A DNA stretch of 64,000 bases from NCBI GenBank assembly GCA_965197855.1, contig OZ240230.1, positions 1,089,266 to 1,153,265 on the forward strand. The letters run 5' to 3'. Shown here piece by piece: positions 3,277 through 35,078 of the stretch (its first letter is position 1; every line of letters begins with the position of its first letter). The notes beneath the pieces are model-generated. The model had not been told where the DNA came from and did no database searches. It was given only the letters and a program-made list of their open reading frames with translations. Position numbers and translations under genes: made by a program. Source of the DNA: Bdellovibrionales bacterium (lineage in GTDB: Bacteria > Bdellovibrionota > Bdellovibrionia > Bdellovibrionales > UBA1609).

Positions 3277-4509
3277 ATGATACTTCTTTATTTTTGTTTT
3301 ATAAGTATGGCTTGTACGTCCCTTCCTTCTGTTGAAAATAAAACAGGAAATGTTATTTTTATTCATCCGGATGGAATGTCTCTCACTCATTGGGATGCTA
3401 TTCGTTTGATTCACTCAGGCTATGAAGGGAATTTGAACTTTGATCGATTTTCACATACAGCTGTTTATCGGGGGACTATTCGAAAACAAGTGACAGCGAC
3501 TTCCAATGCGGGGGCCACTATTCATGCCTTTGGAATTAAAACAGGTGCGGATAGTTTTGGAATGGATGAGGGAAAAACTATTTTATCCAAGTCAGGGGAT
3601 CCTTATTCTATTTTAGTTTCTGCTCAGAAAGAAGGGATTAAGACAGCTCTTTGTCAGTCAGGAGTTTTGGTGGAGCCGGGGACAGCCGCTTTTGTCGCGC
3701 AGGTAAAAAGTCGTAAATATAAAGATGAAATTGCCAGGCAAATTATTGAGTCAGGAGTAGATTTAATTTTTGGAGGAGGAGAAAAGTATTTATTGCCGGA
3801 AGGTGTTCAAGGGCATTTTGGTATAGGGGAAAGAAAAGATCAGATTAATTTAATCGAAAAAGCCAAAAGCTTGGGGTATACAGTTATCTACGATTTAAAA
3901 AACTTTGAAAAACTAAGTTCCAGTTCTAAAATTCTTGGAGTGTTTGCTCACGATGATACTTACAATGATGAAGATCCTGTAGAAGTTATAAAAAAGAAGG
4001 GTTTGTATCAAAAGTCTGCTCCAACTATTGCTCAGATGACTCGATCAGCTTTGGATTTTTTAAAACAGAAAAATCAACAATTTTTACTTATTGTGGAGGA
4101 AGAAGGTACAGATAATTTTTCCAATAGAAAAAATATTGAAGGGTTTTTAATCGCTGGAAAAAGAGCGGATGAGGCACTTGGAGTTGCTTTTGATTTTCTT
4201 AAGAAGAGTCCTGATACTTTATTATTGACTACTTCGGACAGCAATGCGGGTGGCCTGGTTATATCGGAAGTTTTAAGTGAAAAAGATTCTGTTTTTCAAA
4301 CTTATCCCAACACAGTTAAAGATTCCAAAGAGCTTTCTTTTTCAATGAAGTGGGGCTCAGGAGGCTTTGATTCTCATGGAGGTATTGTGGTGAAGGCTCA
4401 GGGACTCAATGCTCATCATGTAACAGGTTTGTTGGACAATACAAAAATTTACGATTTAATGTATCTGACTTTATTTGGACGTCCGGTTGGTTCGTCTCAA
4501 GAATTATGA
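3277..4509 (+). CDS. Alkaline phosphatase family protein (secreted, possible lipoprotein)
   Basis: The track frame starts at GTG 3265, overlapping the purB stop. ATG 3277 gives a signal peptide (MILLYFCFISMAC...). Motifs IHPDGMS and TATSNAGAT resemble alkaline-phosphatase metal-site and nucleophile regions. Confidence 0.65.
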   Translation: MILLYFCFISMACTSLPSVENKTGNVIFIHPDGMSLTHWDAIRLIHSGYEGNLNFDRFSHTAVYRGTIRKQVTATSNAGATIHAFGIKTGADSFGMDEGKTILSKSGDPYSILVSAQKEGIKTALCQSGVLVEPGTAAFVAQVKSRKYKDEIARQIIESGVDLIFGGGEKYLLPEGVQGHFGIGERKDQINLIEKAKSLGYTVIYDLKNFEKLSSSSKILGVFAHDDTYNDEDPVEVIKKKGLYQKSAPTIAQMTRSALDFLKQKNQQFLLIVEEEGTDNFSNRKNIEGFLIAGKRADEALGVAFDFLKKSPDTLLLTTSDSNAGGLVISEVLSEKDSVFQTYPNTVKDSKELSFSMKWGSGGFDSHGGIVVKAQGLNAHHVTGLLDNTKIYDLMYLTLFGRPVGSSQEL

Positions 4510-5762
4510 AAATATTTCTATCTTTTTTTTTCAAATATATTTTATCACCTAGAGTAAGTTCACTTATTCGTCCTGTTTCTATTGTTTGTATTTTTGGTTT
4601 AATAGTCAGTATTGCCAGTTTAGTTGTAGTCATTAGTGTGATGTCTGGTTTTGGATCTTCTTTAAAAGATCGTTTGTTAAGTCATGAACCTCATTTGGTT
4701 GTTTATAAGGATTCTTCACAAAACATGAATTTGTTGGATCAGGTGCAAAAAATTCTAGCTCAAAGTCGTTTGGATAACGATATTCAATCGATTCGTTCTT
4801 TTGAAACACAGGATATAATTTTAAAAAATTCTGAAGGACATTTTGCGGGAGCTATTGCACGCGGTTATGGTTCAAAGGATCTTAGAGCTCTCACTCAAGG
4901 TAGTGATGAAAAATATTTCGAGGATGTGAATTCTAAGGTGGAATGGGATTCTTCAAATATTATAAGTATAAAAAAGGATAAAGTACGTATTCATATTGGA
5001 GTGGAGCTGGCGGATCAGTTATCTGCTTACGAAGGAGATTTTGTATTTATCATGCCTGCAGAAAGTTTACTCACTCCTCCCACAGACATGGCACCCCCGG
5101 AAGAGGTTCAGATTGACTCTCTTATTTTTTCTGTACATTCGTATATCAATAATAAGAAAATTCTTTATGAAAAGGGTTCTATAGTTTCTCTTCAAGAAAC
5201 AGCTTCTTTGTCTCAGGGTGTGGAGATTTTTTTAAAGGATCCTGCAAAGTATAAACCTTATAAAGAGATATTAAAAACAAAAGGCTTTGATGTGCAGTCC
5301 TGGAGTGATCAAAATTCTTCTTTGTTTTTTGCTTTAAAAATTGAAAAAATTATTATGACAGTGTTTTTGGCTTTGGCGGCTTTGATTGCCGGTTTTTCTA
5401 TTGCTTCGATGATTCAACTTTTAATGACTCAGCAAAGGCAGGACATCGGGATTCTTATGGTGATGGGATATCCTGTGAGGCAGGTTCGAAAGCTTTTTGT
5501 TCATTTGGCTTTTATGATGTCGTTTTTAGGTGTGTCTAGTGGAGTGCTTTTAGGGTATTTGATTTGTATTTTTTTAAAATTTGTTCCTATAGATCTGTTA
5601 CCTTCTATTTATGTGGATCGAAAAATTCCTGTGATTATGCAAACAGAAGTTTTTGTGGGAGTATTTATTTTAGCTGGTTTGCTGGCTTATATAATATCTT
5701 TAGTATCTGTTCGTTTTTATACTTTGTCCTCTATTGTGAATTTACTACTAAAGAAGGCTTAA
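4506..5762 (+). CDS. LolC/LolE-family lipoprotein-releasing system permease (FtsX-type)
   Basis: 418 aa. It has an N-terminal TM segment, a large periplasmic domain and three C-terminal TM segments. The N-terminus (...VSIASLVVVISVMSGFGSSLKDRLLSHEPHLVV) is typical of LolC/E. ATGA overlap with the upstream gene. Confidence 0.7.
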   Translation: MKIFLSFFFKYILSPRVSSLIRPVSIVCIFGLIVSIASLVVVISVMSGFGSSLKDRLLSHEPHLVVYKDSSQNMNLLDQVQKILAQSRLDNDIQSIRSFETQDIILKNSEGHFAGAIARGYGSKDLRALTQGSDEKYFEDVNSKVEWDSSNIISIKKDKVRIHIGVELADQLSAYEGDFVFIMPAESLLTPPTDMAPPEEVQIDSLIFSVHSYINNKKILYEKGSIVSLQETASLSQGVEIFLKDPAKYKPYKEILKTKGFDVQSWSDQNSSLFFALKIEKIIMTVFLALAALIAGFSIASMIQLLMTQQRQDIGILMVMGYPVRQVRKLFVHLAFMMSFLGVSSGVLLGYLICIFLKFVPIDLLPSIYVDRKIPVIMQTEVFVGVFILAGLLAYIISLVSVRFYTLSSIVNLLLKKA

Positions 5763-5788
5763 TAACTTGATAAACAGTATGCACTTTT

Positions 5789-5813
5789 CGTCACCCCTGC
5801 GAAGGCAGGAATG
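5789..5813 (+). repeat. Single-hairpin member of the GATGAC-hairpin repeat family
   Basis: CGTCACCCCTGCGAAGGCAGGAATG. The stem CCTGC/GCAGG with the flanking GGAAT matches hairpin A of the copies at 21.6 kb and 15.1 kb. Confidence 0.6.
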
Positions 5814-5946
5814 TTCCCGTCTCTTTCCTGTCCACAAGCCTATCTATGTGGGAGTTGGAGAGCAGAATGCGTAAATTCTATCTGCAAAACTGTTGGTAAT
5901 ACCGTGTCTTTTAGAGATTAAAGATGTACCCCTGCTGTCAAAATAC

Positions 5947-5980
5947 GTCATCCCTGCGGAGGAGGGACTTGGTCACTACA
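5947..5980 (+). repeat. Left direct repeat of the Lol-like cassette (GTCATCC hairpin plus AGGGACTTGGTCACTACA)
   Basis: CGTCATCCCTGCGGAGGAGGGACTTGGTCACTACA. The 18-mer at 5963..5980 is identical to 11113..11130. Confidence 0.7.
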
Positions 5981-6015
5981 CTGTAATGGTTAGAGATTTT
6001 AATTCACTACTGTAG

Positions 6016-6762
6016 TTATCGTCTCAAAGCGGCTTTAGTAAATTTTTGTTTGGGAATTTTTGTTGTAATATCAATATCTTCAACATGATATTCTGTTCCG
6101 TTTCCTTTGGAAAGGATATCCTTAAAATGAACTTGTTTTGGATACCATCTATTTTCCACTTGCATGACTTCTTTGATCATCGTTCTCTTTACAGTTTTTC
6201 CGCTTTTTGCCATTAAATCAGCTTTAAGAACGACCCAACGTATAGAGTCCACCCATATTTTTTGTCTCGCGTAGGGAACGTCTTTTCTTTTTGCTGTCAA
6301 TTCTAATACAAAACAGGAACGGCCTTCTATGGTTTTACGCCCTATGACTTGAGCTTTGTAGTCTTCTATCATGGAGCTGTTGCCCATATAATCTTCATAA
6401 GATAAATCTGAACCAAAAACAGATTGTTTCAGAAGATGACCGGAAATAGTAATAATTCTATCATGAGGTTCTGGAGAATAAGTCCAAAGTTTGTTGGATA
6501 ATTTTAACATTTTTTTACCTTTTTCTCGTGCGGGACTAAGGTACTCAGAGAAAGCTTCATCTTTTCCGTTGACCCAGGATTTCAGTGTCATGGTTCGTGT
6601 GCCTGAGCGGCCGTGAATCACTATTTTAATAGTCATAATGGCGTGGTCTAATAGCTGATTTTCATCTACCTTTTTTAAAATGTCTTTTCCAGATGGCAAT
6701 GAATTTGAATAAGCTGTGGTCCATATACATAGTATGGATAAAATAATAACAACTTGTTTCAA
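6016..6762 (-). CDS. LolA_like outer-membrane lipoprotein-sorting family protein (periplasmic)
   Basis: 248 aa with a signal peptide (MKQVVIILSILCIWTTAYS). The motif LWTYSPEPHDRIITISGHLLKQSVFGSDLSYEDY matches my recollection of the LolA_like family core (mW.Y.P...rv.rIs....qsfmGSDFsYeD). Last gene of the ABC cassette. Confidence 0.6.
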   Translation of the reverse strand: MKQVVIILSILCIWTTAYSNSLPSGKDILKKVDENQLLDHAIMTIKIVIHGRSGTRTMTLKSWVNGKDEAFSEYLSPAREKGKKMLKLSNKLWTYSPEPHDRIITISGHLLKQSVFGSDLSYEDYMGNSSMIEDYKAQVIGRKTIEGRSCFVLELTAKRKDVPYARQKIWVDSIRWVVLKADLMAKSGKTVKRTMIKEVMQVENRWYPKQVHFKDILSKGNGTEYHVEDIDITTKIPKQKFTKAALRR

Positions 6763-6784
6763 ATTAAACCTCCTTTAATTTTTA

Positions 6785-8059
6785 TTACACTTCTAACTCT
6801 TTAAATAACGAAGCTGTATTTCTTCTATAGATTCCCATGCCAGCCATTGCGGTTCCAATAATACAAGAAAGGACGCCAGGAATCAGTCCAATAAAAAAAC
6901 CTTCGATGGTGACTCGTGCTCTCATAACAGGAGACATCAACACAGTGGATTTTTGCATCGTTTCTGATACGTCAAATCCAACAACCTGAAGGTAATAGCA
7001 AAAGGCCATTCCCAAGGAGGCTCCCAGTGTAGCTCCAATGAGACCAATAAGTGCAGATTCATAAAGCATATAGTGCAGGAGTTCTTTTTTGGATTCTCCC
7101 ATGGCCAGTCTCACCCCCATTTCACCGTATCTTCTTAATCCGGACATCAAGCTTGAATTCCAAACTATAATGCTCATTAATAAAAGTAAAACACCGATTA
7201 TGATAACCATTGAAGTGCTCATCATTTTAAAATATTCTCCCAATCCTTCTGCCTCTTCAATGGAGGAAATGGTTAACTCATTACCATTTAATTTCTTGTC
7301 CATAGATAAAGAAGAAAATTCCTGTTTGAGCTGTTCAGCCATTTTTTTTGAATAATATCCCTGTTTGAAAAAGCCTAAAATTTCTGCCACAGAATTTTCC
7401 ATATCCAAAGCATATTGAATATCAGTAATATCAGCCAACATCATGTTTCTATCAAGCATAGGGATACCAATATTAATAAAGCCAACAACTTTAAAATTGT
7501 AAATAGCCATACTTCCTGTGGCAGTGGAGCCAATCAAGGTGGCTGTATCTCCAAGTTTAATATCTAAGTTTTCACCAAGTTTTTTGGAGACAAGGACTTC
7601 TCCTTGTTGGGAGGGCAATTGACCTTCAATAATAGCCGCTTTTATGTCAAGTCTTTCTACTTCAGTGGAATTTGAGGAAATCAAATCAATCCCTATTCCT
7701 CTGACGGGTCCCTGTGACCTGGTTTCACCGAATTGGTTTGGAATATCCAAAAGTCCTCCAAATTTTATTCGGGAAACCCAATCAACATGATCAAGAGTCT
7801 TTAATTTTTTTAAAACTTGATCCGCATGAACGATAGCAAGGTCATTAGGCATTTGATGAGCGATCTTTGCATATTCCTTTGTCATCACTTTCATATGGCC
7901 ATGCTCAAGTTTTGCACTTGTGGATAACATATCATCCTTTACACCTTTCATATATCCGTCAAAAGCTGTCATTAACATAACACCTGTTCCAATGGTGATG
8001 ATCGGAAGTAAACTTCTATGGTGATCTCTTAAGAGTCCTTTTAAAATAAAACCAAGCAT
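6785..8059 (-). CDS. ABC transporter permease, FtsX/MacB-type (large periplasmic domain)
   Basis: 424 aa. Topology is TM1, then a periplasmic domain of about 250 aa, then three TM segments. The N-terminus LKGLLRDHHRSLLPIITIGTGVMLM is typical of LolC/E and MacB permeases. Confidence 0.7.
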   Translation of the reverse strand: MLGFILKGLLRDHHRSLLPIITIGTGVMLMTAFDGYMKGVKDDMLSTSAKLEHGHMKVMTKEYAKIAHQMPNDLAIVHADQVLKKLKTLDHVDWVSRIKFGGLLDIPNQFGETRSQGPVRGIGIDLISSNSTEVERLDIKAAIIEGQLPSQQGEVLVSKKLGENLDIKLGDTATLIGSTATGSMAIYNFKVVGFINIGIPMLDRNMMLADITDIQYALDMENSVAEILGFFKQGYYSKKMAEQLKQEFSSLSMDKKLNGNELTISSIEEAEGLGEYFKMMSTSMVIIIGVLLLLMSIIVWNSSLMSGLRRYGEMGVRLAMGESKKELLHYMLYESALIGLIGATLGASLGMAFCYYLQVVGFDVSETMQKSTVLMSPVMRARVTIEGFFIGLIPGVLSCIIGTAMAGMGIYRRNTASLFKELEV

Positions 8060-9234
8060 TAAGCTTTCCCTCTCAGGGCATCTGTGGTTTTCATATGTGA
8101 AATTTTGTTTGATGGTAAAAAACTTACAATCACAACACTTAAAAGCAGTATTAATAAAGTAATGATCAGAACACCAGGGGCATAAGAAGCATAGAGGCGT
8201 GATCCTATGGCAAACCCATAACTATCTGTCAGTTTCAGAATAGGGAGACCTATCACAGCTGTGTAAACTATTAATGGAATTCCCCAAACGGCGCCAAGTA
8301 GCATAGCCAAAATCCCATTCAGACTGCCTTCGATGGTAAATAACCATACCACTTGCAATCTGTTCATTCCGAGCGCCATGAGTGTGCCGATTTCTTTTCT
8401 TCTTCTAAAAATAGCTAACACTTGAGTATCAAAAATAGCTAACAGCCCCATTCCCATTAAAAATGCATATAAAATATAACGAGGAGTTTTTTTTGTTTCA
8501 AACAATGCTTGTATATCTTTTAAAAGGAATTTTTGGCTTTTAAGTTGAAAGGATGGATCATTGACGAATGATTCTGTGTCTTTTTTAGCTATGAAAAGAG
8601 TGGCTGAATTTGGCAAGTTTGTCATTTTTCTGAGAGATTCCAGAGACAGCCAAACTTGTCCTGTATCCAATCCCGGTACAGGCATATTCATAATATGTGC
8701 AATTGTAATATCTATGGCATCAAAAATACCATGAGTATCTCTCCATCTTAAGGTGACTGTATCTCCCATCTTGAGATTTGTGTGTTTAGCCATTCTTGTT
8801 CCTATTAAGGCTGGTATTTGATCATCATTTTCATTTTTTAAAACATGTGAGGGTATTGAAATAATTTGTTGGGTGGGATTGATGCCTCTGAGCAAAACGG
8901 ATTGTCCGCGCCCATCAGGGTAGAGAGAACCCACAGCTAATAAAATAGGAGTCACATGACCTGTTTCAACTAAATTCTGTAAGGCTGTATCTGGCTGGCT
9001 GTGAGCGTCCTGTATAGTGAGTGGATCAAGAGGGTCATATTCTTTATGCCAGTACTGCCCGCCTGCATATTCATTGTCAATTTGAGCGGATTCCATTTGT
9101 TGGATGAGTCCATTCATGAGTCCCTGCATCCATATAACAAAAACAAAACCAACAGAGAGTGTAAGTACATTAAGCCATGTGCGCAGACCTGTGGATCGAA
9201 TGTTTTTTATTGCCAGGTTAAATAATATATTCAC
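8059..9234 (-). CDS. ABC transporter permease, FtsX/MacB-type (second paralogue)
   Basis: 391 aa. N-terminus LAIKNIRSTGLRTWLNVLTLSVGFVFVI, with the same topology as its neighbour. Abuts the downstream permease; its stop codon shares 1 nt (8059) with that gene's ATG. Confidence 0.7.
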   Translation of the reverse strand: MNILFNLAIKNIRSTGLRTWLNVLTLSVGFVFVIWMQGLMNGLIQQMESAQIDNEYAGGQYWHKEYDPLDPLTIQDAHSQPDTALQNLVETGHVTPILLAVGSLYPDGRGQSVLLRGINPTQQIISIPSHVLKNENDDQIPALIGTRMAKHTNLKMGDTVTLRWRDTHGIFDAIDITIAHIMNMPVPGLDTGQVWLSLESLRKMTNLPNSATLFIAKKDTESFVNDPSFQLKSQKFLLKDIQALFETKKTPRYILYAFLMGMGLLAIFDTQVLAIFRRRKEIGTLMALGMNRLQVVWLFTIEGSLNGILAMLLGAVWGIPLIVYTAVIGLPILKLTDSYGFAIGSRLYASYAPGVLIITLLILLLSVVIVSFLPSNKISHMKTTDALRGKA

Positions 9235-9239
9235 TTAAT

Positions 9240-9953
9240 TTACTCTCCATTTCTTGTGGGTTTCAGTGTTTCGTCTCTTGAGATAGTGCCGTCAATGAGA
9301 GTCACCTTTCTTCTTAAATAGTCGATGACTTTTTGATCGTGAGTAGAAAATAAAAATGTAACACCCAGGGTTTTATTTAGTTCGACCATTGTATTTAGAA
9401 TGTTATGTGAGTTTTTAGCATCTAAGTTGGCTGTCGGCTCATCTGCAATAACAATCTGTGGTTTTTTAACAATAGCTCTAGCTACAGCCACTCTTTGACT
9501 CTCTCCTCCGGAAAGTTGAGAGAAACGAGAATTAGCTTTATCTGATAACCCGACCCACTTAAGGGCTTCATCCACAGCTTGTTTTCTATATGCTGGCGGT
9601 TTTTTCAAAATCAATAATGGAAATTCAACATTTTCAAAGACAGTGTAAACTGGAAGAAGATTATAGCTTTGGAAAATAAAACCTATTGTTGTTTTTCGAA
9701 GGTTTGCCGCTTCGAAATGACTAAGGTTTGCAGTATTATTATTTAACACTTTGATACTTCCCTCTGTTGGCACATCTAAAGCTCCAACAAGATTAAGTAG
9801 AGTTGTTTTTCCGGATCCGCTGGGGCCCACCAAGCCCATGAAATCTTGTGTTCGAATTTTCAAATTGATATCTTTTAAAGCAGTAAAATCGCTACCTCCA
9901 GTAAGAAATTTTTTTGTCACTCCTTTTATTTCTATAATGATTTCTTTATCCAT
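9240..9953 (-). CDS. ABC transporter ATP-binding protein (LolD/MacB-type)
   Basis: 237 aa. Walker A GPSGSGKTT, signature LSGGESQRVAVARA and Walker B IVIADEPT are all present. Confidence 0.85.
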   Translation of the reverse strand: MDKEIIIEIKGVTKKFLTGGSDFTALKDINLKIRTQDFMGLVGPSGSGKTTLLNLVGALDVPTEGSIKVLNNNTANLSHFEAANLRKTTIGFIFQSYNLLPVYTVFENVEFPLLILKKPPAYRKQAVDEALKWVGLSDKANSRFSQLSGGESQRVAVARAIVKKPQIVIADEPTANLDAKNSHNILNTMVELNKTLGVTFLFSTHDQKVIDYLRRKVTLIDGTISRDETLKPTRNGE

Positions 9954-9971
9954 AAATTCTTACCTGCCCTT

Positions 9972-11096
9972 CTAATAATTAAAGATGATCATAGCGTAAA
10001 GTCCATGACCTGAAAAATGAATATTATTATTTTGGACTTCTTTTGGAGCAGAAAATACTCCAAAATTGAACATCCAATCGTTGTAAGATCTATTCCAGCT
10101 TAGATAGTGAATACTTTGTTTTTGTTCCCATAAATACATTTCAAGGAAGGAAATTGAATCCAGGACACTTATAGGATAACTAAGTTGAATGGCGCTCGTG
10201 TGCGATACTCTATTCCATTTTAAAATGCTCTTTTTGAAGTTTGTTATCAGATGCTCCACAGTTATATGTAATCCATTGCCAATTCCAAAGGTGTAGTCAG
10301 CGCCTACAGTGCAGGATTCAAACCATTTGCTTTGAAGTTCTGGGTTGGCGCCCTGATTAATAAGAACATATTCGTACCAAAGCCCAATATCCAAATCAAA
10401 TTTTCCATCAATAGCATATCTCGTTTCTATAGGACTTGCTGTACTTGATTTTTGTTTTAATTTTATATTTTCTGTTTTACGTCCATGCATACTGAATCCC
10501 AATTCTCCATTTTTTAATGGATATTGTATTCTTGCCCCAAATTCCGGTGTGTCTTCTTGAGTCGCAATCCATTCATATCCTTTAGGGTCTTTATTTCCAT
10601 ATAGACTCCAAATCCAAATATTCGCATTATTCATAAAAAAATACCGATATCTGATTCCAATAACTCCTTCAGTGAGTTGGAGTGGATCCGTTGGGTTTAT
10701 TTGATCAAACCACATGAGTGACCGTAATATAATGGCAGGCCCGAAGTTTATTTTTTGAAGTCCAACTCTCAGATCACTATGTGCAGTTTTTAGCTGTGTA
10801 TTGAGTCTATATATGTTTGTTTTTGCACAATAATTATTAGAAGTACAATCCTCCATCTTTCCATAAAAAATATTAGCGGAAGCATTTATATCCCAGAGAT
10901 AATTTTCTAAAAATTTATATTTTAGTGTTAACTCAGGGATATATTGCAGAGACGGTTGATGGTTCCATTGTTTTGAGACTTGATTTCCGATGTATGAAAG
11001 AGAAAGTTGTCCTTTACTTTCTTTAACAAGTTCAGCTGTTCCTGTTATGGGCATTACAATAATAAGGGATATGGCCAGAGGGATTATTGCTTTCAT
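9972..11096 (-). CDS. Putative outer-membrane beta-barrel protein (first gene of the cassette)
   Basis: The track ORF extends to 11162, but that extension reads through the repeat. Met at 11096 gives a signal peptide (MKAIIPLAISLIIVMPITGTAEL). The body has alternating amphipathic strands and ends ...YAMIIFNY (aromatic C-terminus). Confidence 0.5.
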   Translation of the reverse strand: MKAIIPLAISLIIVMPITGTAELVKESKGQLSLSYIGNQVSKQWNHQPSLQYIPELTLKYKFLENYLWDINASANIFYGKMEDCTSNNYCAKTNIYRLNTQLKTAHSDLRVGLQKINFGPAIILRSLMWFDQINPTDPLQLTEGVIGIRYRYFFMNNANIWIWSLYGNKDPKGYEWIATQEDTPEFGARIQYPLKNGELGFSMHGRKTENIKLKQKSSTASPIETRYAIDGKFDLDIGLWYEYVLINQGANPELQSKWFESCTVGADYTFGIGNGLHITVEHLITNFKKSILKWNRVSHTSAIQLSYPISVLDSISFLEMYLWEQKQSIHYLSWNRSYNDWMFNFGVFSAPKEVQNNNIHFSGHGLYAMIIFNY

Positions 11097-11103
11097 CTTT
11101 ACA

Positions 11104-11130
11104 TGCCCGCGGAGGGACTTGGTCACTACA
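11104..11130 (+). repeat. Right direct repeat of the cassette, containing an exact 18-nt duplicate of the tRNA-Leu 3' end
   Basis: TGCCCGCGGAGGGACTTG at 11104..11121 is identical to 11308..11325, the tRNA T-loop to discriminator read on the plus strand. AGGGACTTGGTCACTACA at 11113..11130 is identical to 5963..5980. Confidence 0.8.
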
Positions 11131-11177
11131 GTTGTTCGCTTCACGCTCACTCCTTGCGTCACCTCACTTCGCTCGCT

Positions 11178-11200
11178 CAGAAAATCATCCGGATTTTCTG
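11178..11200. repeat. Perfect 9-bp hairpin inside a partial repeat-family copy
   Basis: CAGAAAATC-ATCCG-GATTTTCTG. It is preceded by TCACCTCACTTCGCTCGCTCAG, which resembles GCACCTCAACCACTTCGCTCCTGCG of the 21.6-kb copy. Confidence 0.45.
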
Positions 11201-11307
11201 CTTTGTATTGAGTGTTTTCACACTTAACACAAATCGTTCGCTCATTTCAAGTCCCAGGTAATGAAAAAATAAAAAATCACTTTTGCAGGTAGTCTTTTAT
11301 TTTTTAT

Positions 11308-11389
11308 TGCCCGCGGAGGGACTTGAACCCCCACACCTTGCGGTACTAGATCCTAAGTCTAGCGCGTCTGCCAATTCCGCCACGCGGGC
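11308..11389 (-). tRNA. tRNA-Leu (anticodon UAG)
   Basis: Reverse complement: GCCCGCGTGGCGGAATTGGCAGACGCGCTAGACTTAGGATCTAGTACCGCAAGGTGTGGGGGTTCAAGTCCCTCCGCGGGCA. It has a 7-bp acceptor stem, an anticodon stem CTAGA/TCTAG with loop CTTAGGA, a long variable arm and a TTCAAGT T-loop. CCA is not encoded. Confidence 0.9.
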
Positions 11390-11397
11390 TTTAATTT

Positions 11398-11847
11398 TCA
11401 AGATAAGGCTTCCAATTCTTTCTCAATAAATTTCTTATAACTAGCAGGGTCCATTAATTGAGCTAGATCATTTTCGCGACTCATCTCAATTCGAATGAGC
11501 CAACCTTCACTCATAGGGTGATCACTAATTAAACCAGGAGAGAGACTGCTATTAACTTCCACAACTTCTCCAGAAACCGGAACATATAAATCACTGACAT
11601 GTTTGTTGCTTTCCACTAATCCAAACACTTGCGTTCTTTCTAAAATTTGACCTTTTTGCGGCAATTTCCAACTGACAAGTTCACCCAGTTGATCTTGAGC
11701 AAAATATGTAATGCCCACAGTCACTACATTTTTATCTTCCAAAGACACCCATTCATGAGTGTTGGTATAATAAAAACTGTCTGTAGGAACAATCAACCTT
11801 CTTGGCATATCCAAATCATTATCATTCATAAAAAGAGCCTCCTTCAT
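11398..11847 (-). CDS. gcvH: Glycine cleavage system protein H
   Basis: Motifs YYTNTHEWV, GITYFAQDQLGELV and VESNKHVSDLYVPVSGEVVEVN (lipoyl-Lys region) are present. The true start may be an internal Met (MPRRLIVP...) near 11808. Confidence 0.85.
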   Translation of the reverse strand: MKEALFMNDNDLDMPRRLIVPTDSFYYTNTHEWVSLEDKNVVTVGITYFAQDQLGELVSWKLPQKGQILERTQVFGLVESNKHVSDLYVPVSGEVVEVNSSLSPGLISDHPMSEGWLIRIEMSRENDLAQLMDPASYKKFIEKELEALS

Positions 11848-13238: not shown

Positions 13239-14105
13239 ATGAAGAGAATGGATGGCAAGATAGTTGCTCAAACTTTGAAAGATCAAGTTACACAAGAAGT
13301 GCAGGGATTGAAAAAACAAGGGATTCATCCTAGCTTATGTGTGCTTTTGGCAGGGGACAATCCCGCAAGCGAAATTTATGTGAAACGTAAAATGATGGCT
13401 TGTGACGAAGTGGGTATTCGTTCAAAACTTTTAAAGTTTCCAAAAGATGTGCCGCAGGAAGAGTTAGAGCAAACATTAGATTCATTAAACCAGGATGAGC
13501 AAGTGCATGGTATTTTAGTTCAACTCCCTCTACCGAAACATTTAGATCAAAAGACTGTGCTTTCTTATTTATCTTCAAAAAAAGATGTGGATGCATTGAC
13601 CACTGAAAGTGTGGGAGCTTTATGGTCCTCCTCCTCTCTTGTACATCCCTGCCCCTGTACTCCTAAAGGTATTATGGCAATGCTTGAATATTATCAGATT
13701 CCCCTCGAAGGCCGTCATGTGGTGGTGGTGGGTCGTAGTTTGATTGTGGGTCTTCCTATGGTTCAGCTGTTATTGAAAAAAAATGCCACAGTGACTGTTT
13801 GTCATTCCAAAACACCTTCTTTAAAAGAGCATACAAAGATGGCTGATGTGGTGATTGCAGCTTGTGGAAAACATCATTTGTTGAAAGCTCAGGATTTTAA
13901 AAAAGGTGCTGTGGTGATAGATGTGGGGATTCATAGAATTTCCAAAGAGGGTAAGACCATTCTGCAAGGAGATGTTTGTCCGGATGGCTTGGAAAATGTT
14001 TTGGATTATTTCAGTCCTGTGCCAGGGGGAGTAGGCCCGATGACCATTGCTGTCTTACTTCAAAATACAGTTCAGCTCGCTCGCCATTTTTTTGATTCAA
14101 AGTAG
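13239..14105 (+). CDS. folD: Bifunctional methylenetetrahydrofolate dehydrogenase/cyclohydrolase
   Basis: 288 aa. Motifs GDNPASEIYVKRK, GILVQLPLP, VVVVGRSLIVGLP and PVPGGVGPMTIA are present. Confidence 0.9.
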   Translation: MKRMDGKIVAQTLKDQVTQEVQGLKKQGIHPSLCVLLAGDNPASEIYVKRKMMACDEVGIRSKLLKFPKDVPQEELEQTLDSLNQDEQVHGILVQLPLPKHLDQKTVLSYLSSKKDVDALTTESVGALWSSSSLVHPCPCTPKGIMAMLEYYQIPLEGRHVVVVGRSLIVGLPMVQLLLKKNATVTVCHSKTPSLKEHTKMADVVIAACGKHHLLKAQDFKKGAVVIDVGIHRISKEGKTILQGDVCPDGLENVLDYFSPVPGGVGPMTIAVLLQNTVQLARHFFDSK

Positions 14106-14264
14106 GTTAACTCTTTTCAAAGTCAACTTAAGTCATTATGAACTTTTTTTTGTGTCGCGGCCCCCTCAAAGACAATCGGGAGTGAACAAAAACTTGAAGA
14201 AATATGGGGGTATAATAAATTCTATTCAAGTGATCTTGAACCTTAGAAAAAAAGGAGCTTTCTA

Positions 14265-15090
14265 ATGAAAAAAATTATTTTTGGTTTTAAAGTATTACTG
14301 CTTTCAGTTTTTGTATCGTCTCTATTCGGTTGTGTATCTTTTTATTTTTCCCGTCTTACAAAACCTCATACAGCTTGAACTCTTGGTGAAGGCAATAATG
14401 AGGTAGTTGTGTCAGTAGGTACTCTTGGTAAAGTAAAGAGTGTAAAAAAAGAAGAGACATTTTTTGTACGTCCATTCTCTCAATCACTGGAATAGAATAT
14501 ACAAGAGGACTTTCTGATCATTTTGATTTAGGAGTATTTGCCGAAATGCAATGGTGGGGAGAAATGCTTCCTCTTATTGGTTTGGAAGGAAAATATCAGT
14601 TCATTCAAAGTGAGCAACATACACTGTCTTTATTATTTGGTGCTGGATTTAATAAGGGGGATAATGAATATGGGGATGAGAAAGTCACTGATGATTCTCT
14701 GCTTGGTTATTTTAGTTATATCGGTCCTGTGTATAGTTTTAAGCCCAATGAAAAATATGAGCTGGCATTAAATGTTCGAATCAATCAAAGTTATTCAAAA
14801 TCAGCTAACCTTACATCAGTAGCTGTGGGAGAATTTGTAAATGCATTCAGGAATCATCCAAAAGAAATAGATGACGATGTAGATGTACGTTCTATTTCTC
14901 TTTTATATGGCTCGGCAAATATGTCTCATACATGGTGGATTGTACCTCGTTTTGGAACAACCCTCTAATACTATCTCCACTTTATGTCTTGGGTGAGAAT
15001 GGTGAATCCGATACAGATGAAGACGATTCCACAGAAAACTTAGGAGATCGTCTGGGTAAACTTGGTTTGAATTTTCATTTTAACTTTTAA
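14265..15090 (+). pseudogene. Disrupted outer-membrane lipoprotein/beta-barrel gene (two in-frame stops and at least two frameshifts)
   Basis: SD AAAGGAG (14251..14257) precedes ATG 14265, giving MKKIIFGFKVLLLSVFVSSLFGC (lipobox). There is an in-frame TGA at 14376..14378 and an in-frame TAG at 14493..14495. The body continues in a second frame (...TGIEYTRGLSDHFDLGVFAEMQWW..., track ORF 14546..14968). The C-terminal piece ...LGDRLGKLGLNFHFNF* (stop 15088..15090) is in a third frame and keeps a beta-signal-like aromatic terminus. Confidence 0.55.
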
Positions 15091-15124
15091 AAAGTGTGTG
15101 TGATTTACGTTACCTCTTTAACAA

Positions 15125-15224
15125 TGTCATCCTGACGAAAGTCAGGATCTCCCTCGTATACAACTGGATTCCGGCTTTCGCCGGAGCAAAGTGATGAGGT
15201 GCCAGCCGAAATCACTGAGCAAAA
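15125..15224 (-). repeat. Full two-hairpin GATGAC repeat element (inverted orientation)
   Basis: The reverse complement aligns along about 100 nt with 21590..21693. Hairpins are ATCCTGAC-GAAA-GTCAGGAT (15129..15148) and TCCGG-CTTTCG-CCGGA (15170..15185). Confidence 0.7.
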
Positions 15225-15582
15225 GTATACCTGAATTGTAAATGTTCACTAAGTTGCTGACAGAACAGCAGGTATGATTTTTATTGAAGATTGAGTTGAA
15301 AGGCTGTGTGAATAAGACTTCAAGTGAGTTCGGCTTTGAGGCTGAGCGACAGGAAGTCCGCTCTGCTGCAAAACGCATGTTTGAAATTTGCATGGCTTGT
15401 TCGCACAGCCTTTCTTCATAATTTTGTCAGTATAAGATCTAAAATGACCATTATTGGTCGCTTATGATCAAAAGTGGTTCTAATCACTGCTCAAAATCAT
15501 CATTTTGTCTCTTTATAGGTGCCCCTGATTTTGCATGTATGTTTTTCAGAAACATATGAACAAATTCAAAAGGGGGCATCTT

Positions 15583-15834
15583 ATGAAGAAAAAAAGAGGA
15601 CAGGGGTTGATCGAATACCTGATCTTAGTGACTTTAATGGCTGTGGCTACCATTAGCATTGTACGGGTTTTAAATCAAACAGTGAAATCTCGTTTTGCCA
15701 ATGCCATTCACGCTCTGCAAGGCACTAATAAAAGAGTCAAGACAGACTCAGTGAAAAGTTCAGACTATCAAAAAAGTGATTTGAGTGATTTTATGAATGG
15801 AGCGGCCAGTGAACCCAAAACTAAGAAAAAATAA
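15583..15834 (+). CDS. flp: Flp-family type IVb pilin (long C-terminal tail)
   Basis: The track ORF starts at 15535. ATG 15583 has AAGGGGG 6 nt upstream. The N-terminus MKKKRG/QGLIEYLILVTLMAVATISIV fits the Flp G/XXXXEY processing motif followed by a hydrophobic helix. Confidence 0.7.
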   Translation: MKKKRGQGLIEYLILVTLMAVATISIVRVLNQTVKSRFANAIHALQGTNKRVKTDSVKSSDYQKSDLSDFMNGAASEPKTKKK

Positions 15835-21532: not shown

Positions 21533-21557
21533 AAATTAGTTTCATAATAATGTACAG

Positions 21558-21693
21558 GGAGATTTCTGTCTTCGCGAGGATGACGTTTACTTTTGGCTCA
21601 GCGGTTTTCGGTTGGCACCTCAACCACTTCGCTCCTGCGAAAGCAGGAATCCAGATGAATATGAAGGAGATCCCCGCTTTCGCGGGGATGACG
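21558..21693 (+). repeat. Full two-hairpin GATGAC repeat element preceded by an extra degenerate hairpin module
   Basis: GGAGATTTCTGTCTTCGCGAGGATGACG (21558..21585) is a degenerate copy of GGAGATCCCCGCTTTCGCGGGGATGACG (21666..21693). Hairpin A is CCTGC-GAAA-GCAGG (21634..21647). Hairpin B is ATCCCCGC-TTTC-GCGGGGAT. Confidence 0.7.
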
Positions 21694-21886
21694 TGGTTTT
21701 GTGGGATTAACGGAAGTGGATGATGGAATATGGAAAGTAACCTTTATGGATTATGACATAGGTTGCTTTGATGAAGACAGTTGTAAGTTTGTTCCTTTGG
21801 ACAATCCTTTGGATAAACTGTCAATGATGTGTCCGGTATAAAGTGTCAGCGATGTTTCAGGTTGCACAAGTGTAAAACATGACTGA
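21692..21886 (+). pseudogene. C-terminal relic of an rve-superfamily (IS481-like) transposase
   Basis: Translates RGFVGLTEVDDGIWKVTFMDYDIGCFDEDSCKFVPLDNPLDKLSMMCPV*SVSDVSGCTSVKHD*. This matches the conserved ...VGL.EVDDGIW.V.FM.YDLGYFD......P..NPF..KV.PMSPV tail I recall from IS481-type transposases. There is no upstream catalytic domain, and an internal stop lies at 21839..21841. Confidence 0.5.
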
Positions 21887-35011: not shown

Positions 35012-35078
35012 GGATTCATGCTTACGCAAGAATCCATTTGTATACGTAAAGTGGATCCCCGCTTTCACGGGGATGACG
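35012..35078 (+). repeat. Two-hairpin GATGAC repeat element (third full hairpin-A/spacer/hairpin-B copy)
   Basis: GGATTCATGC-TTAC-GCAAGAATCC, then the spacer ATTTGTATACGTAAAGT, then GGATCCCCGCTTTCACGGGGATGACG. It is colinear with 21631..21693 and starts 20 nt after the pdxJ stop. Confidence 0.65.

What the first reader, a model, noticed from the sequence alone, without database searches (positions are those of the whole stretch)
5947..11325. An exact tRNA-Leu 3'-end duplicate and ~30-nt direct repeats bracket a 5.1-kb five-gene cassette
tRNA-Leu(UAG) lies at 11308..11389 on the minus strand. Its 3'-terminal 18 nt, from the T-loop to the discriminator (plus strand TGCCCGCGGAGGGACTTG, 11308..11325), recur exactly at 11104..11121. 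That copy is 186 nt downstream of the tRNA and only 7 nt upstream of the ATG (11096) of the first gene of the barrel/ABC/LolA_like operon.

The copy continues as AGGGACTTGGTCACTACA (11113..11130). This 18-mer recurs exactly at 5963..5980, 35 nt beyond the stop of the last cassette gene (6016). Same-orientation repeats of the form CC(T)GCGG(AGG)AGGGACTTGGTCACTACA therefore flank 5981..11103.

Duplication of a tRNA 3' end is the classical att scar of integrase-mediated island insertion. No integrase or transposase is present, so this would be a decayed or trans-mobilised cassette. An alternative is that the left copy is fused to a GTCATCC hairpin of the local repeat family and the similarity is repeat-driven.
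Basis: partly seen in the sequence, partly recalled or inferred. Interest (0 to 1): 0.6.

Follow-up and report, generated by a model that had tools for sequence, protein, structure and literature searches.

The report
Repeat-bounded gene cassette beside tRNA-Leu hotspot
A five-gene transporter operon lies between two copies of a short recombination-type site derived partly from the end of a tRNA-Leu gene, at a spot where related bacteria carry other cargo or nothing, so it is probably an integrase-less insertion cassette of a broadly known kind.

Summary
tRNA-Leu(UAG) is at 11308..11389 (-). Its last 18 nt recur exactly at 11104..11121. The 18-mer AGGGACTTGGTCACTACA occurs only at 5963 and 11113.

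The exact tRNA duplicate bounds only a 186-nt gene-less module. The five-gene cassette lies between two copies of a hybrid site, TGTAGTGACC plus AAGTCCCT.

In ten related loci the tRNA-Leu..lolCE interval is hypervariable.
- It is empty in L028 and L035, where lolCE sits next to tRNA-Leu.
- It holds IetAS defence genes and a toxin-antitoxin pair in L027.
- It holds paralogous secreted proteins in L029, L030 and L031.
- It holds the same cassette in L001 and L003.

In near-identical genomes L030 and L031, a 756-nt toxin-antitoxin module is present or absent exactly between two copies of the same site. The site and a 25-nt upstream box are invariant across species whose proteins are about 80% identical.

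The site is not REP-like and was found only at this locus. The cassette has native composition, and no integrase was found anywhere examined.

Verdict: a tRNA-anchored, att-flanked, integrase-less cassette, moved in trans or now fixed. This is a new member of a known kind, with a modest chance of being an integron-like capture platform.

The parts
11398..11847 (-). gcvH, a conserved core gene that flanks the hotspot on the tRNA side
   Evidence: Pfam GCV_H, E = 2.3e-36. It is adjacent to tRNA-Leu in all related loci.
11308..11389 (-). tRNA-Leu(UAG). Its last 18 nt (11308..11325, T-loop to discriminator) form repeat copy 1.
   Evidence: ARAGORN, Rfam 57.6 bits and the exact 18-mer.
11122..11307 (-). 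Gene-less 186-nt module between tRNA copy 1 and copy 2. It contains a tRNA terminator-like hairpin (11264..11305), an inverted copy of the T-loop GGGACTTGAA (11246..11255), stem-loop 1 (11202..11233), stem-loop 2 (11178..11200) and conserved box A (11145..11170).
   Evidence: Coordinates. Stem-loops are supported by 11 pairs with changes on both sides, and 0 of 500 shuffles reach the observed values. The module is present, absent or tandemly repeated in relatives. Box A is 25/25 identical across six species.
11104..11139 (-). DR2. It comprises box B (GCGAACAAC), the core TGTAGTG-ACCAAGT-CCCTCCG and an exact copy of the tRNA 3' end. It lies 7 nt upstream of the cassette's first ATG.
   Evidence: The junction TGTAGTGACC|AAGTCCCTCCGCGGGCA is identical in L001, L003, L029, L031 and L033.
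9972..11096 (-).
   Evidence: No Pfam, NCBIfam or PDB sequence match. There are 948 homologues. In all seven homologous operons examined it is the first gene. The database annotation starts at GTG 11162 and would run through DR2.
9240..9953 (-). Cassette gene 2: ABC ATPase (LolD/MacB-like)
   Evidence: Pfam ABC_tran, E = 1.5e-34. TIGR02211 scores 225 bits, below its cut-off.
8059..9234 (-). Cassette gene 3: FtsX/MacB_PCD permease
6785..8059 (-). Cassette gene 4: FtsX/MacB_PCD permease
6016..6762 (-). Cassette gene 5: LolA_like (PF17131) periplasmic protein
   Evidence: Pfam E = 8.3e-49.
5946..5980 (-). DR3. The core TGTAGTG-ACCAAGT-CCCTCCT (5963..5980 is an exact copy of DR2) runs into a REP-like, terminator-like hairpin GTCCCTCCTCCGCAGGGAT-GACG (5950..5968).
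   Evidence: REP family copies lie at 21556, 21664 and 35049.
5817..5909 (+). Remnant of a 123-aa cysteine-rich gene that is intact in L027. It belongs to the resident, pre-cassette content of the interval.
   Evidence: tblastn gives 58% identity over 31 aa, E = 7.8e-10.
4506..5762 (+). lolC/E-like FtsX permease, a conserved core gene that flanks the hotspot on the far side
   Evidence: It is the far boundary in L001 and L027-L031 and L035.

Best explanation
The interval between tRNA-Leu(UAG) and the lolC/E-like gene is a lineage-specific recombination hotspot. About 190 nt downstream of the tRNA sits a docking site with three parts:
- box A, a 25-nt invariant stretch carrying reiterated AGTGAS motifs;
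- a short variable linker;
- box B plus a partly palindromic 21-bp core, TGTAGTG-ACYAAGT-CCCTnnn. Its right half is the T-loop-to-3' part of the tRNA.

Cargo segments enter, and can leave, by site-specific recombination at this core. Each ends up between the docking site and a second, arm-less copy of the core. The barrel/ABC/FtsX/FtsX/LolA_like operon of the window (5981..11103) is one such cargo, bounded by DR2 and DR3.

It carries no recombinase. Any movement must depend on an enzyme encoded elsewhere, as for a cis- or trans-mobilised att-flanked element. Alternatively it is now simply fixed.

Shown:
- the repeats and their conservation;
- the presence/absence polymorphism and alternative cargo;
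- a clean repeat-bounded indel of a toxin-antitoxin module.

Inferred:
- that a site-specific, probably tyrosine-type, recombinase acts on the core;
- whether the cassette was gained or precisely lost in particular lineages.
For: 1. The repeats are exact and unique.

2. The same interval has at least six states in relatives oriented gcvT-gcvH-tRNA-Leu ... lolCE-AlkP:
- empty in L028 and L035;
- three 460-aa paralogues in L029;
- toxin-antitoxin plus 503-aa plus 415-aa genes in L030, and 466-aa plus 415-aa genes in L031;
- toxin-antitoxin, GyrI-like protein and the IetA/IetS defence pair in L027;
- the cassette in L001 and L003.

3. L030 and L031 have gcvT 98% and AlkP 100% identical. They differ by a 756-nt toxin-antitoxin module lying exactly between ACGACTGTA[A/G]TGACTAAGTCCCT copies. 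L031 has one copy with the identical right flank.

4. Partner sites within one genome share the central 7-mer: ACCAAGT twice in the window and ACTAAGT twice in L030.

5. The core is self-complementary at 16 of 21 positions in L030/L031 (random P about 0.0008) and at 12 of 21 in the window (P about 0.03).

6. Box A is 25/25 identical, and the core junction invariant, in species whose flanking proteins are about 80% identical. Both are shared by two module types that are otherwise non-homologous. This argues for selection on the site.

7. The cassette is patchy on the flanking-gene tree: window+L030 100% bootstrap, L001+L034 82%.

8. Cassette-less relatives show no cassette remnants.

9. The five-gene unit travels as an intact operon in unrelated contexts elsewhere.

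10. The motif occurs nowhere else in about 340 kb examined. Collection scans gave only chance-level hits, apart from L010, which is the same relative contig as L029.
Against: - No integrase, transposase or other recombinase was found in 40 window ORFs. None is recorded among the called genes of any related locus.
- The cassette's GC (0.366 against 0.359), GC3 and tetranucleotide usage (92nd percentile) are native.
- DR3 is present only in the window. L001 and L003 carry the cassette without a distal core copy within 4 mismatches.
- Cassette proteins differ between species about as much as flanking proteins do (80-92% against 82-83% for window and L001). This fits long vertical residence.
- Repeats of 18-23 bp can also drive recombinase-independent deletion.
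- The whole 1.4-Mb genome could not be searched, so the copy number of the site outside this locus is unknown.
Confidence: 0.55

Rival explanations
1. The operon is ancestral and the repeats are bystanders. The operon has always sat next to tRNA-Leu. The repeats arose by local tandem duplication and unequal crossing-over of the tRNA 3' region, plus REP-like hairpins. Differences between relatives reflect ordinary deletions and replacement through homologous recombination in the conserved flanks (gcvH/tRNA and lolCE). No dedicated site-specific system is involved.
For: - Composition is native.
- The cassette is shared by three species, with divergence similar to that of the flanks.
- The module-cassette junction is shared by the window and L003, and in degenerate form by L001.
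- Modules occur as 100% identical tandem copies in L029 and L033, as unequal crossing-over would give.
- No recombinase was found.
- DR3 is missing in L001 and L003.
Against: - It needs at least three or four independent, scar-free losses on the flank tree.
- It does not explain why an arm-less copy of the non-tRNA half of the core sits at the far end of two unrelated cargos, the ABC operon in the window and the toxin-antitoxin module in L030.
- It does not explain the invariance of box A and the core across about 20% protein divergence.
- An 18/18 match between DR2 and DR3 is unlikely to survive as neutral intergenic DNA since the split from L001 and L003 (inference).
Confidence: 0.27
2. Box A, box B and the tRNA-like end are conserved because they act in RNA rather than as a recombination site. 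Candidate roles are a processing or termination signal, or a small RNA downstream of tRNA-Leu. The copies at cargo ends would then be terminators or processing sites co-opted by the operons.
For: - The module carries two stem-loops with strong covariation.
- The module folds better than its shuffles, z = -2.96.
- The DR3 hairpin followed by a T-rich tail matches a terminator pattern directly after the last cassette gene.
Against: - No Rfam family matches.
- The conserved box A and core lie outside the covarying hairpins.
- The tRNA-like 3' piece has no 5' acceptor partner in the module (sequence).
- The terminator scan is at chance level, 4 found against 3.6 expected.
- An RNA role does not explain the repeat-bounded indel between L030 and L031.
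Confidence: 0.1
3. The similarity of the left copy is a chance or REP-driven resemblance. DR3 is just a member of the local ...GGGGATGACG palindromic repeat family that happens to look like the tRNA end.
For: - The distal half of DR3 (CCTCCGCAGGGATGACG) does resemble the REP family at 21556, 21664 and 35049.
- Similar REP clusters occupy the same intergenic position in L001.
Against: - The exact 18-mer includes 9-10 nt (TGTAGTGACC) absent from every other REP copy.
- No other match exists within 3 mismatches in 64 kb, with 0.04 expected.
- The same core without any REP part occurs in L030 and L031.
Confidence: 0.03

Closest known systems
tRNA-anchored genomic islands built by tandem accretion, as modelled for Prochlorococcus tycheposon islands (bioRxiv 10.1101/2020.12.28.424599)
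   Same: - An intact tRNA lies at the proximal end.
- Partial tRNA copies are scattered further in.
- Cargo without an integrase sits between them.
- Heterogeneity between close strains is highest next to the tRNA.
- Cargo includes transport and defence functions.
   Different: - No tyrosine recombinase or other tycheposon hallmark gene was seen in any of the loci.
- The repeated site is a hybrid: 10 nt of non-tRNA sequence plus 8-17 nt of tRNA, with a conserved 25-nt upstream box.
- The element nearest the tRNA is a gene-less module of 190-300 nt.
CIMEs (cis-mobilisable elements) and other att-flanked, integrase-less islets derived from ICEs or IMEs (own knowledge, described for Streptococcus thermophilus ICESt1/ICESt3; not checked in a paper here)
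   Same: - A cargo segment is bounded by direct att-type repeats at a tRNA or gene 3' end.
- It lacks its own recombination module.
- It is expected to move only with help from an element of the same att specificity.
   Different: - No cognate autonomous element is known for this lineage.
- The cargo is a compositionally native housekeeping-type operon shared by several species.
Integron cassette arrays and CALINs (own knowledge)
   Same: Functional resemblance only.
- There is a fixed docking site with reiterated motifs on one side of a simple core, as in attI.
- Cargo is inserted immediately downstream of it.
- A shorter site lies at the distal end of each cargo.
- A toxin-antitoxin module is among the cargos.
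   Different: - No IntI.
- No attC architecture or GTTRRRY core.
- At most one or two cargos lie between sites per genome.
- Cargo orientation is not uniform: the toxin-antitoxin module in L030 is inverted relative to the ABC operon.
- One cargo is a five-gene operon.
Core-gene-flanked horizontal-transfer and defence hotspots next to tRNA genes (own knowledge)
   Same: - Conserved flanking core genes (gcvH/tRNA-Leu and lolCE).
- Alternative cargos, including IetAS and toxin-antitoxin genes.
- Empty states in some relatives.
- No mobility genes.
   Different: Here short conserved direct repeats delimit at least two of the cargos exactly. Generic hotspots turned over by flanking homology do not require this.

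Membership tests
tRNA-targeting integrative island (tyrosine-integrase type) | An intact tRNA gene at one boundary | tested here: met
   tRNA-Leu(UAG) 11308..11389, ARAGORN and Rfam 57.6 bits.
tRNA-targeting integrative island (tyrosine-integrase type) | A direct repeat of the tRNA 3' segment at the distal boundary of the inserted DNA | tested here: inconclusive
   The exact 18-nt repeat (DR2) bounds only the 186-nt module. The cassette's distal repeat (DR3) keeps 9 nt of tRNA sequence exactly, then a 3-nt indel and a diverged rest.
tRNA-targeting integrative island (tyrosine-integrase type) | An integrase gene inside the element, usually next to the tRNA | tested here: not met
   No Phage_integrase, recombinase or transposase hit in 40 window ORFs. 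None is recorded in the related loci.
tRNA-targeting integrative island (tyrosine-integrase type) | Presence/absence polymorphism, with an empty site in relatives | tested here: met
   L028 and L035 have tRNA-Leu, a 92-aa ORF and then lolCE, with no cassette. There are no remnants. The distribution on the flank tree is patchy.
tRNA-targeting integrative island (tyrosine-integrase type) | Composition or codon usage deviating from the host genome | tested here: not met
   GC 0.366 against 0.359. Tetranucleotide distance at the 92nd percentile of same-size windows. GC3 0.27-0.33, as in the flanks.
tRNA-targeting integrative island (tyrosine-integrase type) | Excision to a circle with regeneration of the empty site | not testable with these tools
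   This needs reads or PCR from the source sample.
CIME-like att-flanked non-autonomous element | Flanked by two att-type direct repeats and lacking its own recombination genes | tested here: met
   DR2 and DR3 share 18/18 nt, and none of the five cassette genes is recombination-related.
CIME-like att-flanked non-autonomous element | A cognate autonomous element with the same att specificity exists in the lineage | tested here: inconclusive
   None was found in about 340 kb of window plus relatives, or in viral contigs. Whole genomes were not available.
Integron / CALIN | IntI integrase adjacent to attI | tested here: not met
   The genes next to the docking site are gcvH, gcvT and folD.
Integron / CALIN | attC sites, meaning imperfect palindromes with R''/L''-L'/R' boxes and a GTTRRRY core, after each cassette | tested here: not met
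   The distal sites are 18-23-nt cores, TGTAGTGACYAAGTCCCT, with no GTTRRRY. This was judged by reading the sequences against remembered consensus. No attC model was run.
REP-like dispersed palindromic repeats (...CCCCGCGAAAGCGGGGATGACG family of this genome) | The repeated sequence occurs at many dispersed intergenic places | tested here: not met
   The core 18-mer has 2 copies in 64 kb, both at this locus. REP copies at 21556, 21664 and 35049 lack it. The genome-wide count was not possible.
LolCDE lipoprotein-release system (identity of the cargo) | Scores above the curated NCBIfam cut-offs for LolC/E and LolD | tested here: not met
   lolCE model: 37-58 bits against a cut-off of 362. LolD model: 225 against 308. 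The cargo is a MacB/Lol-type ABC system with a LolA_like partner, not canonical LolCDE.

The most novel reading that the evidence does not exclude
The tRNA-Leu-proximal box A/box B/core is the docking site of a previously undescribed cassette-capture system. It would work like an integron attI. A recombinase encoded elsewhere in these small genomes would insert and excise promoter-less or self-contained cargos that each carry only a roughly 20-bp arm-less core. Cargos seen so far are an ABC/LolA_like operon and a toxin-antitoxin module. The covarying two-hairpin module would act as an accessory element, either folded DNA or a guide or regulatory RNA whose GGGACTTGAA stretch is complementary to the T-loop core.
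Probability: 0.15. Interest if true: 0.75.

Novelty: new member of a known kind. Interest (0 to 1): 0.42.

Why it matters
It shows how an uncultured lineage with a small genome swaps whole functional modules at one tRNA-linked address without any visible mobility gene. The window comes from a 1.4-Mb contig, and one relative is deposited as a Bdellovibrionales MAG. The swapped modules include an envelope ABC transporter, a toxin-antitoxin pair and an IetAS defence system.

The invariant 25-nt box and the partly palindromic core give a concrete, testable recombination site. The exact junction sequences make excision testable in existing read sets.

If a dedicated enzyme reads this site, it would be a new site/recombinase pair. 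If none does, this is a clean example of repeat-bounded turnover at a tRNA hotspot.

Tried and rejected
- **Genome-wide count of the 18-mer.** The window's genome is not in the GTDB representative collection. The scan gave 23 single hits, which I estimate to be about the chance number, plus one true relative, L010, the same contig as L029. The metagenome scan gave one chance hit inside a coding region. The viral scan gave none.
- **Search for a phage or element attP carrying the tRNA-Leu 3' end.** There were only two hits, both full tRNA-Leu genes inside phage tRNA arrays. The 16-mer of box A gave five scattered viral hits that were not inspected.
- **Exact look-up of the window's own protein P0001.** It returned no contig.
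- **Rfam at permissive thresholds on both repeat regions.** Nothing but the tRNA.
- **Promoter and terminator scan.** Counts are at chance level, and no convincing promoter for the cassette lies in the module.
- **Pfam, PADLOC and PDB searches for cassette gene 1 and for the 411/415-aa and 460-aa cargo families.** No hits, so none could be called a recombinase.
- **MITE or transposon reading of the module.** The terminal inverted repeat is only 8 bp (GGGACTTG/CAAGTCCC). An 18-bp target duplication would be atypical. Rejected.
- **Retroelement primer-binding-site reading of the 18-mer complement.** There is no CCA complement and no retroelement genes. Rejected.
- **Xer/dif-type site.** By eye there is no 11-6-11 architecture or resemblance to dif as I recall it. 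Not pursued.
- **Last contig look-up (L050).** The contig ended right after gcvH and added nothing.
- **First tree script.** It timed out and a second failed on a file name.

Full report
**1. The observation**

- ARAGORN and Rfam place a single tRNA in the window, tRNA-Leu(UAG), at 11308..11389 on the minus strand.
- The plus-strand 18-mer TGCCCGCGGAGGGACTTG is the tRNA from the T-loop to the discriminator. It occurs exactly twice, at 11308 and 11104. No further match exists within three mismatches, and none is expected by chance.
- AGGGACTTGGTCACTACA occurs exactly twice, at 11113 and 5963, again with no near matches.
- The genes in between, all on the minus strand, are:
  - a 374-aa protein without any family match;
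  - an ABC ATPase;
  - two FtsX/MacB_PCD permeases;
  - a LolA_like protein.
- The distances to the first ATG (7 nt) and to the last stop (35 nt) are as stated.

**2. Anatomy, read in the direction of the tRNA**

The order is: tRNA, a 186-nt gene-less module, DR2, the five-gene cassette, DR3, a remnant of a small gene, then the convergent lolC/E-like gene.

DR2 is ...GAAGTGAGGTGACGCAAGGAGTGAGC (box A), an 8-nt linker, GCGAACAAC-TGTAGTGACC-AAGTCCCTCCGCGGGCA. DR3 is ...ACAG-TGTAGTGACC-AAGTCCCTCCTCCGCAGGGATGACG.

- The exact tRNA-end duplicate delimits only the 186-nt module.
- The cassette's two repeats share TGTAGTGACC, which is not tRNA sequence, plus only the first 8-9 nt of the tRNA piece. 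The repeated unit is therefore a hybrid core and not the tRNA end as such.

The distal half of DR3 is a hairpin of the local ...GGGGATGACG palindromic repeat family. Other copies lie at 21556, 21664 and 35049, and those copies lack TGTAGTGACC.

**3. Relatives**

The window's proteins are on record from a 1,397,683-bp contig. The 90% cluster of its GcvH, and close homologues of cassette gene 1, led to related loci from other assemblies. One of these is deposited as 'MAG: Bdellovibrionales bacterium'.

All are collinear on the outside: folD, gcvT, gcvH and tRNA-Leu on one side, and lolCE, alkaline phosphatase and adenylosuccinate lyase on the other. Flanking proteins are about 80-90% identical between species, and gcvH 94-100%.

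The interval between tRNA-Leu and lolCE differs in almost every one.

| Locus | Content of the tRNA-Leu..lolCE interval |
|---|---|
| L029 | 1.5 identical copies of the module, the 92-aa ORF and three paralogous 460-aa secreted proteins |
| L030 | A module, a HigBA-like toxin-antitoxin pair, a 503-aa and a 415-aa protein |
| L031 | Two modules, then 466-aa and 415-aa proteins |
| L027 (a 2.07-Mb contig) | A truncated module, the same toxin-antitoxin pair, a GyrI-like protein and an IetA/IetS defence pair |
| L001 | The cassette, plus extra small ORFs and a degenerate second module directly upstream of the cassette |
| L003 | gcvH, module and cassette, but different outer flanks on both sides |

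A neighbour-joining tree of four flanking proteins (1,155 ungapped columns) gives these groupings:

- window with cassette-less L030, 100% bootstrap;
- L028 with L029, 100%;
- L001 with cassette-less L034/35, 82%.

The cassette is thus patchy. Cassette-less relatives contain no remnant of any cassette gene, at protein or DNA level.

**4. The site behaves like a recombination site**

The clearest case is not in the window. L030 and L031 have gcvT 98%, lolCE 99% and AlkP 100% identical. They differ by a 756-nt toxin-antitoxin module.

- In L030 the module lies exactly between ...GCGAACGAC-TGTAATGACTAAGTCCCT and ...AAATAAACGAC-TGTAGTGACTAAGTCCCT.
- In L031 there is one site with the same left arm and the same right flank, ATAAAATTTTT.

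This arrangement, with a full arm at the tRNA-proximal copy and a bare core at the far end of the cargo, is the same as for the ABC cassette in the window.

Further properties of the site:

- Partner sites in a genome share the central heptamer: ACCAAGT in the window and ACTAAGT in L030.
- The 21-bp core is self-complementary at 16 of 21 positions in L030/L031 (P about 0.0008 for random 21-mers) and at 12 of 21 in the window.
- It can be written as 7+7+7. The middle heptamer occupies the place of the T-loop. That is the layout expected for a tyrosine recombinase acting on a T-arm (inference from general knowledge of tRNA att sites).
- Box A is 25/25 identical in six species. It is shared by two module types that are otherwise unalignable.
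- The junction TGTAGTGACC|AAGTCCCTCCGCGGGCA is identical wherever it occurs.

Such invariance in intergenic DNA between genomes with about 20% protein divergence indicates selection on the site. Box A contains reiterated AGTGAG/GGTGAC/AGTGAC motifs that resemble the core half-site. This would fit accessory binding sites, but that reading is inference.

**5. What argues for caution**

- No integrase, transposase or other recombinase was found in 40 window ORFs. None is on record for any gene of the related loci.
- The cargo families without Pfam hits (411/415 aa and 460 aa) are secreted or repeat proteins, not obvious enzymes.
- The cassette is compositionally native: GC 0.366 against 0.359, GC3 within the range of the flanks, and tetranucleotide distance at the 92nd percentile.
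- Its proteins have diverged between species about as much as the flanks have.
- L001 and L003 have no distal core copy.

Long residence with several precise losses therefore cannot be separated from repeated gain. Repeats of 18-23 bp could also mediate recombinase-independent deletion.

What that rival does not explain is why bare copies of the non-tRNA half of the core sit at the far ends of two unrelated cargos in the first place. It also does not explain why DR3 still matches DR2 at 18 of 18 positions.

**6. The cargo**

The same five-gene order recurs at about 50% identity in unrelated genomic contexts without tRNA-Leu (L039-L042). Cassette gene 1 has 948 homologues, named examples being from Desulfobacterota-like, Zixibacteria and Latescibacteria MAGs. 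It is a self-contained MacB/Lol-type envelope ABC system.

It does not meet the NCBIfam cut-offs for LolCDE. The 'barrel' label for gene 1 was not verified, as there is no Pfam or PDB sequence match.

**7. Comparison with known systems**

In kind this is a tRNA-anchored variable island with partial-tRNA repeats and integrase-less cargo. That corresponds to two known cases:

- the model given for tycheposon islands, in which elements integrate at the proximal tRNA and degenerate material with partial tRNAs accumulates;
- CIME-type att-flanked non-autonomous elements (own knowledge).

It fails the membership test for a classical integrase island, having no integrase and no compositional signal. 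It also fails the test for an integron, having no IntI and no attC. It nevertheless works somewhat like an integron: a docking site with one-sided accessory repeats, cargo inserted right behind it, and a short site at the cargo's far end.

I therefore file it as a new member of a known kind. I put the probability at about 15% that the box A/core site defines a distinct cassette-capture system.

**8. Verdict**

- Observation: confirmed.
- Interpretation: partly supported. This is a repeat-bounded, integrase-less cassette at a tRNA-Leu hotspot. The mechanism is inferred, the direction of change is unresolved, and the site is not simply the tRNA end.
- Interest: 0.42.

Noticed in passing
window 11178..11233 (minus strand); L001 9850..9910; L027 10590..10640; L029 and L033 about 10590..10660: Two adjacent stem-loops in the gene-less module keep their pairing through many double substitutions. 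11 of 23 pairs changed on both sides, 97% of cells are paired, and 0 of 500 shuffles reach this. The structure could be in RNA or in DNA. No Rfam family matches.
   Followed up: partly
L003 8768..8870: In this relative the tRNA-Leu(UAG) gene is disrupted. From the shared heptamer CGCAAGG onward, the 5' T-arm is replaced by box A/box B sequence, and ARAGORN finds no tRNA-Leu. This is either a real deletion between the tRNA and a downstream arm, or a long-read assembly or polishing artefact. The same contig has split clpX and a truncated cassette gene 1.
   Followed up: partly
L027 14710..18218: In a relative, the hotspot holds an IetA/IetS (AAA ATPase plus subtilase) anti-phage defence pair (PADLOC IetA E = 4e-73, IetS E = 8.6e-38). 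Next to it is a HigBA-like toxin-antitoxin module 89% identical to the repeat-bounded one in L030.
   Followed up: yes
window 11097..11162: The database protein for cassette gene 1 (P0001, 396 aa) starts at GTG 11162. It would be translated through box A and DR2. Most homologues (about 360-390 aa) and the L003 orthologue support the ATG at 11096, so the deposited start is probably over-extended.
   Followed up: partly
window 21556..21693, 35049..35078, 5766..5800; L001 15960..16130; L028 10545..10600: A dispersed family of REP-like palindromes of the CGTCATCCCCGCGAAAGCGGGGATC type. In one frame it translates to the 'IPAFAGMT' peptide seen as spurious ORFs in many genomes. A second unit, GGTTTTCGGTTGGCACC..CTCCTGCGAAAGCAGGAATCCAG, also recurs. 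Both cluster in variable intergenic regions.
   Followed up: partly
window 21701..21841 (+): A short ORF ending ...GIWKVTFMDYDIGCFDEDSCKFVPL looks like the C-terminal tail of a DDE transposase (IS481-like, from memory). It sits among REP copies and is possibly a transposase remnant. It was not tested against any library.
   Followed up: no
L002 1..18; L033 10711..10869; L034, L036 and L050 contig ends; L001 8736..8834 (N gap): Several independent assemblies break or gap exactly at the tRNA-Leu/module/DR position. This is consistent with repeats and strain heterogeneity at this locus within the sampled populations.
   Followed up: no
L027 5630..7282; L028 6802..7611 and 13871..15598; window about 14106..15500: Two further variable spots exist in the same neighbourhood. 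One lies between an 83-aa gene and folD; its content ranges from none in L034 through 269-312-aa proteins to a 550-aa AAA_14/DUF4143 protein. The other lies between the alkaline phosphatase and ADSL, where L028 has a 575-aa cysteine-rich protein.
   Followed up: no
window 5817..5909 (+): A 31-aa stretch is 58% identical to a 123-aa cysteine-rich protein that is intact in L027. This is a decayed remnant of resident hotspot content. The 92-aa ORF conserved in L001, L027, L028, L029 and L035 is absent from the window.
   Followed up: yes
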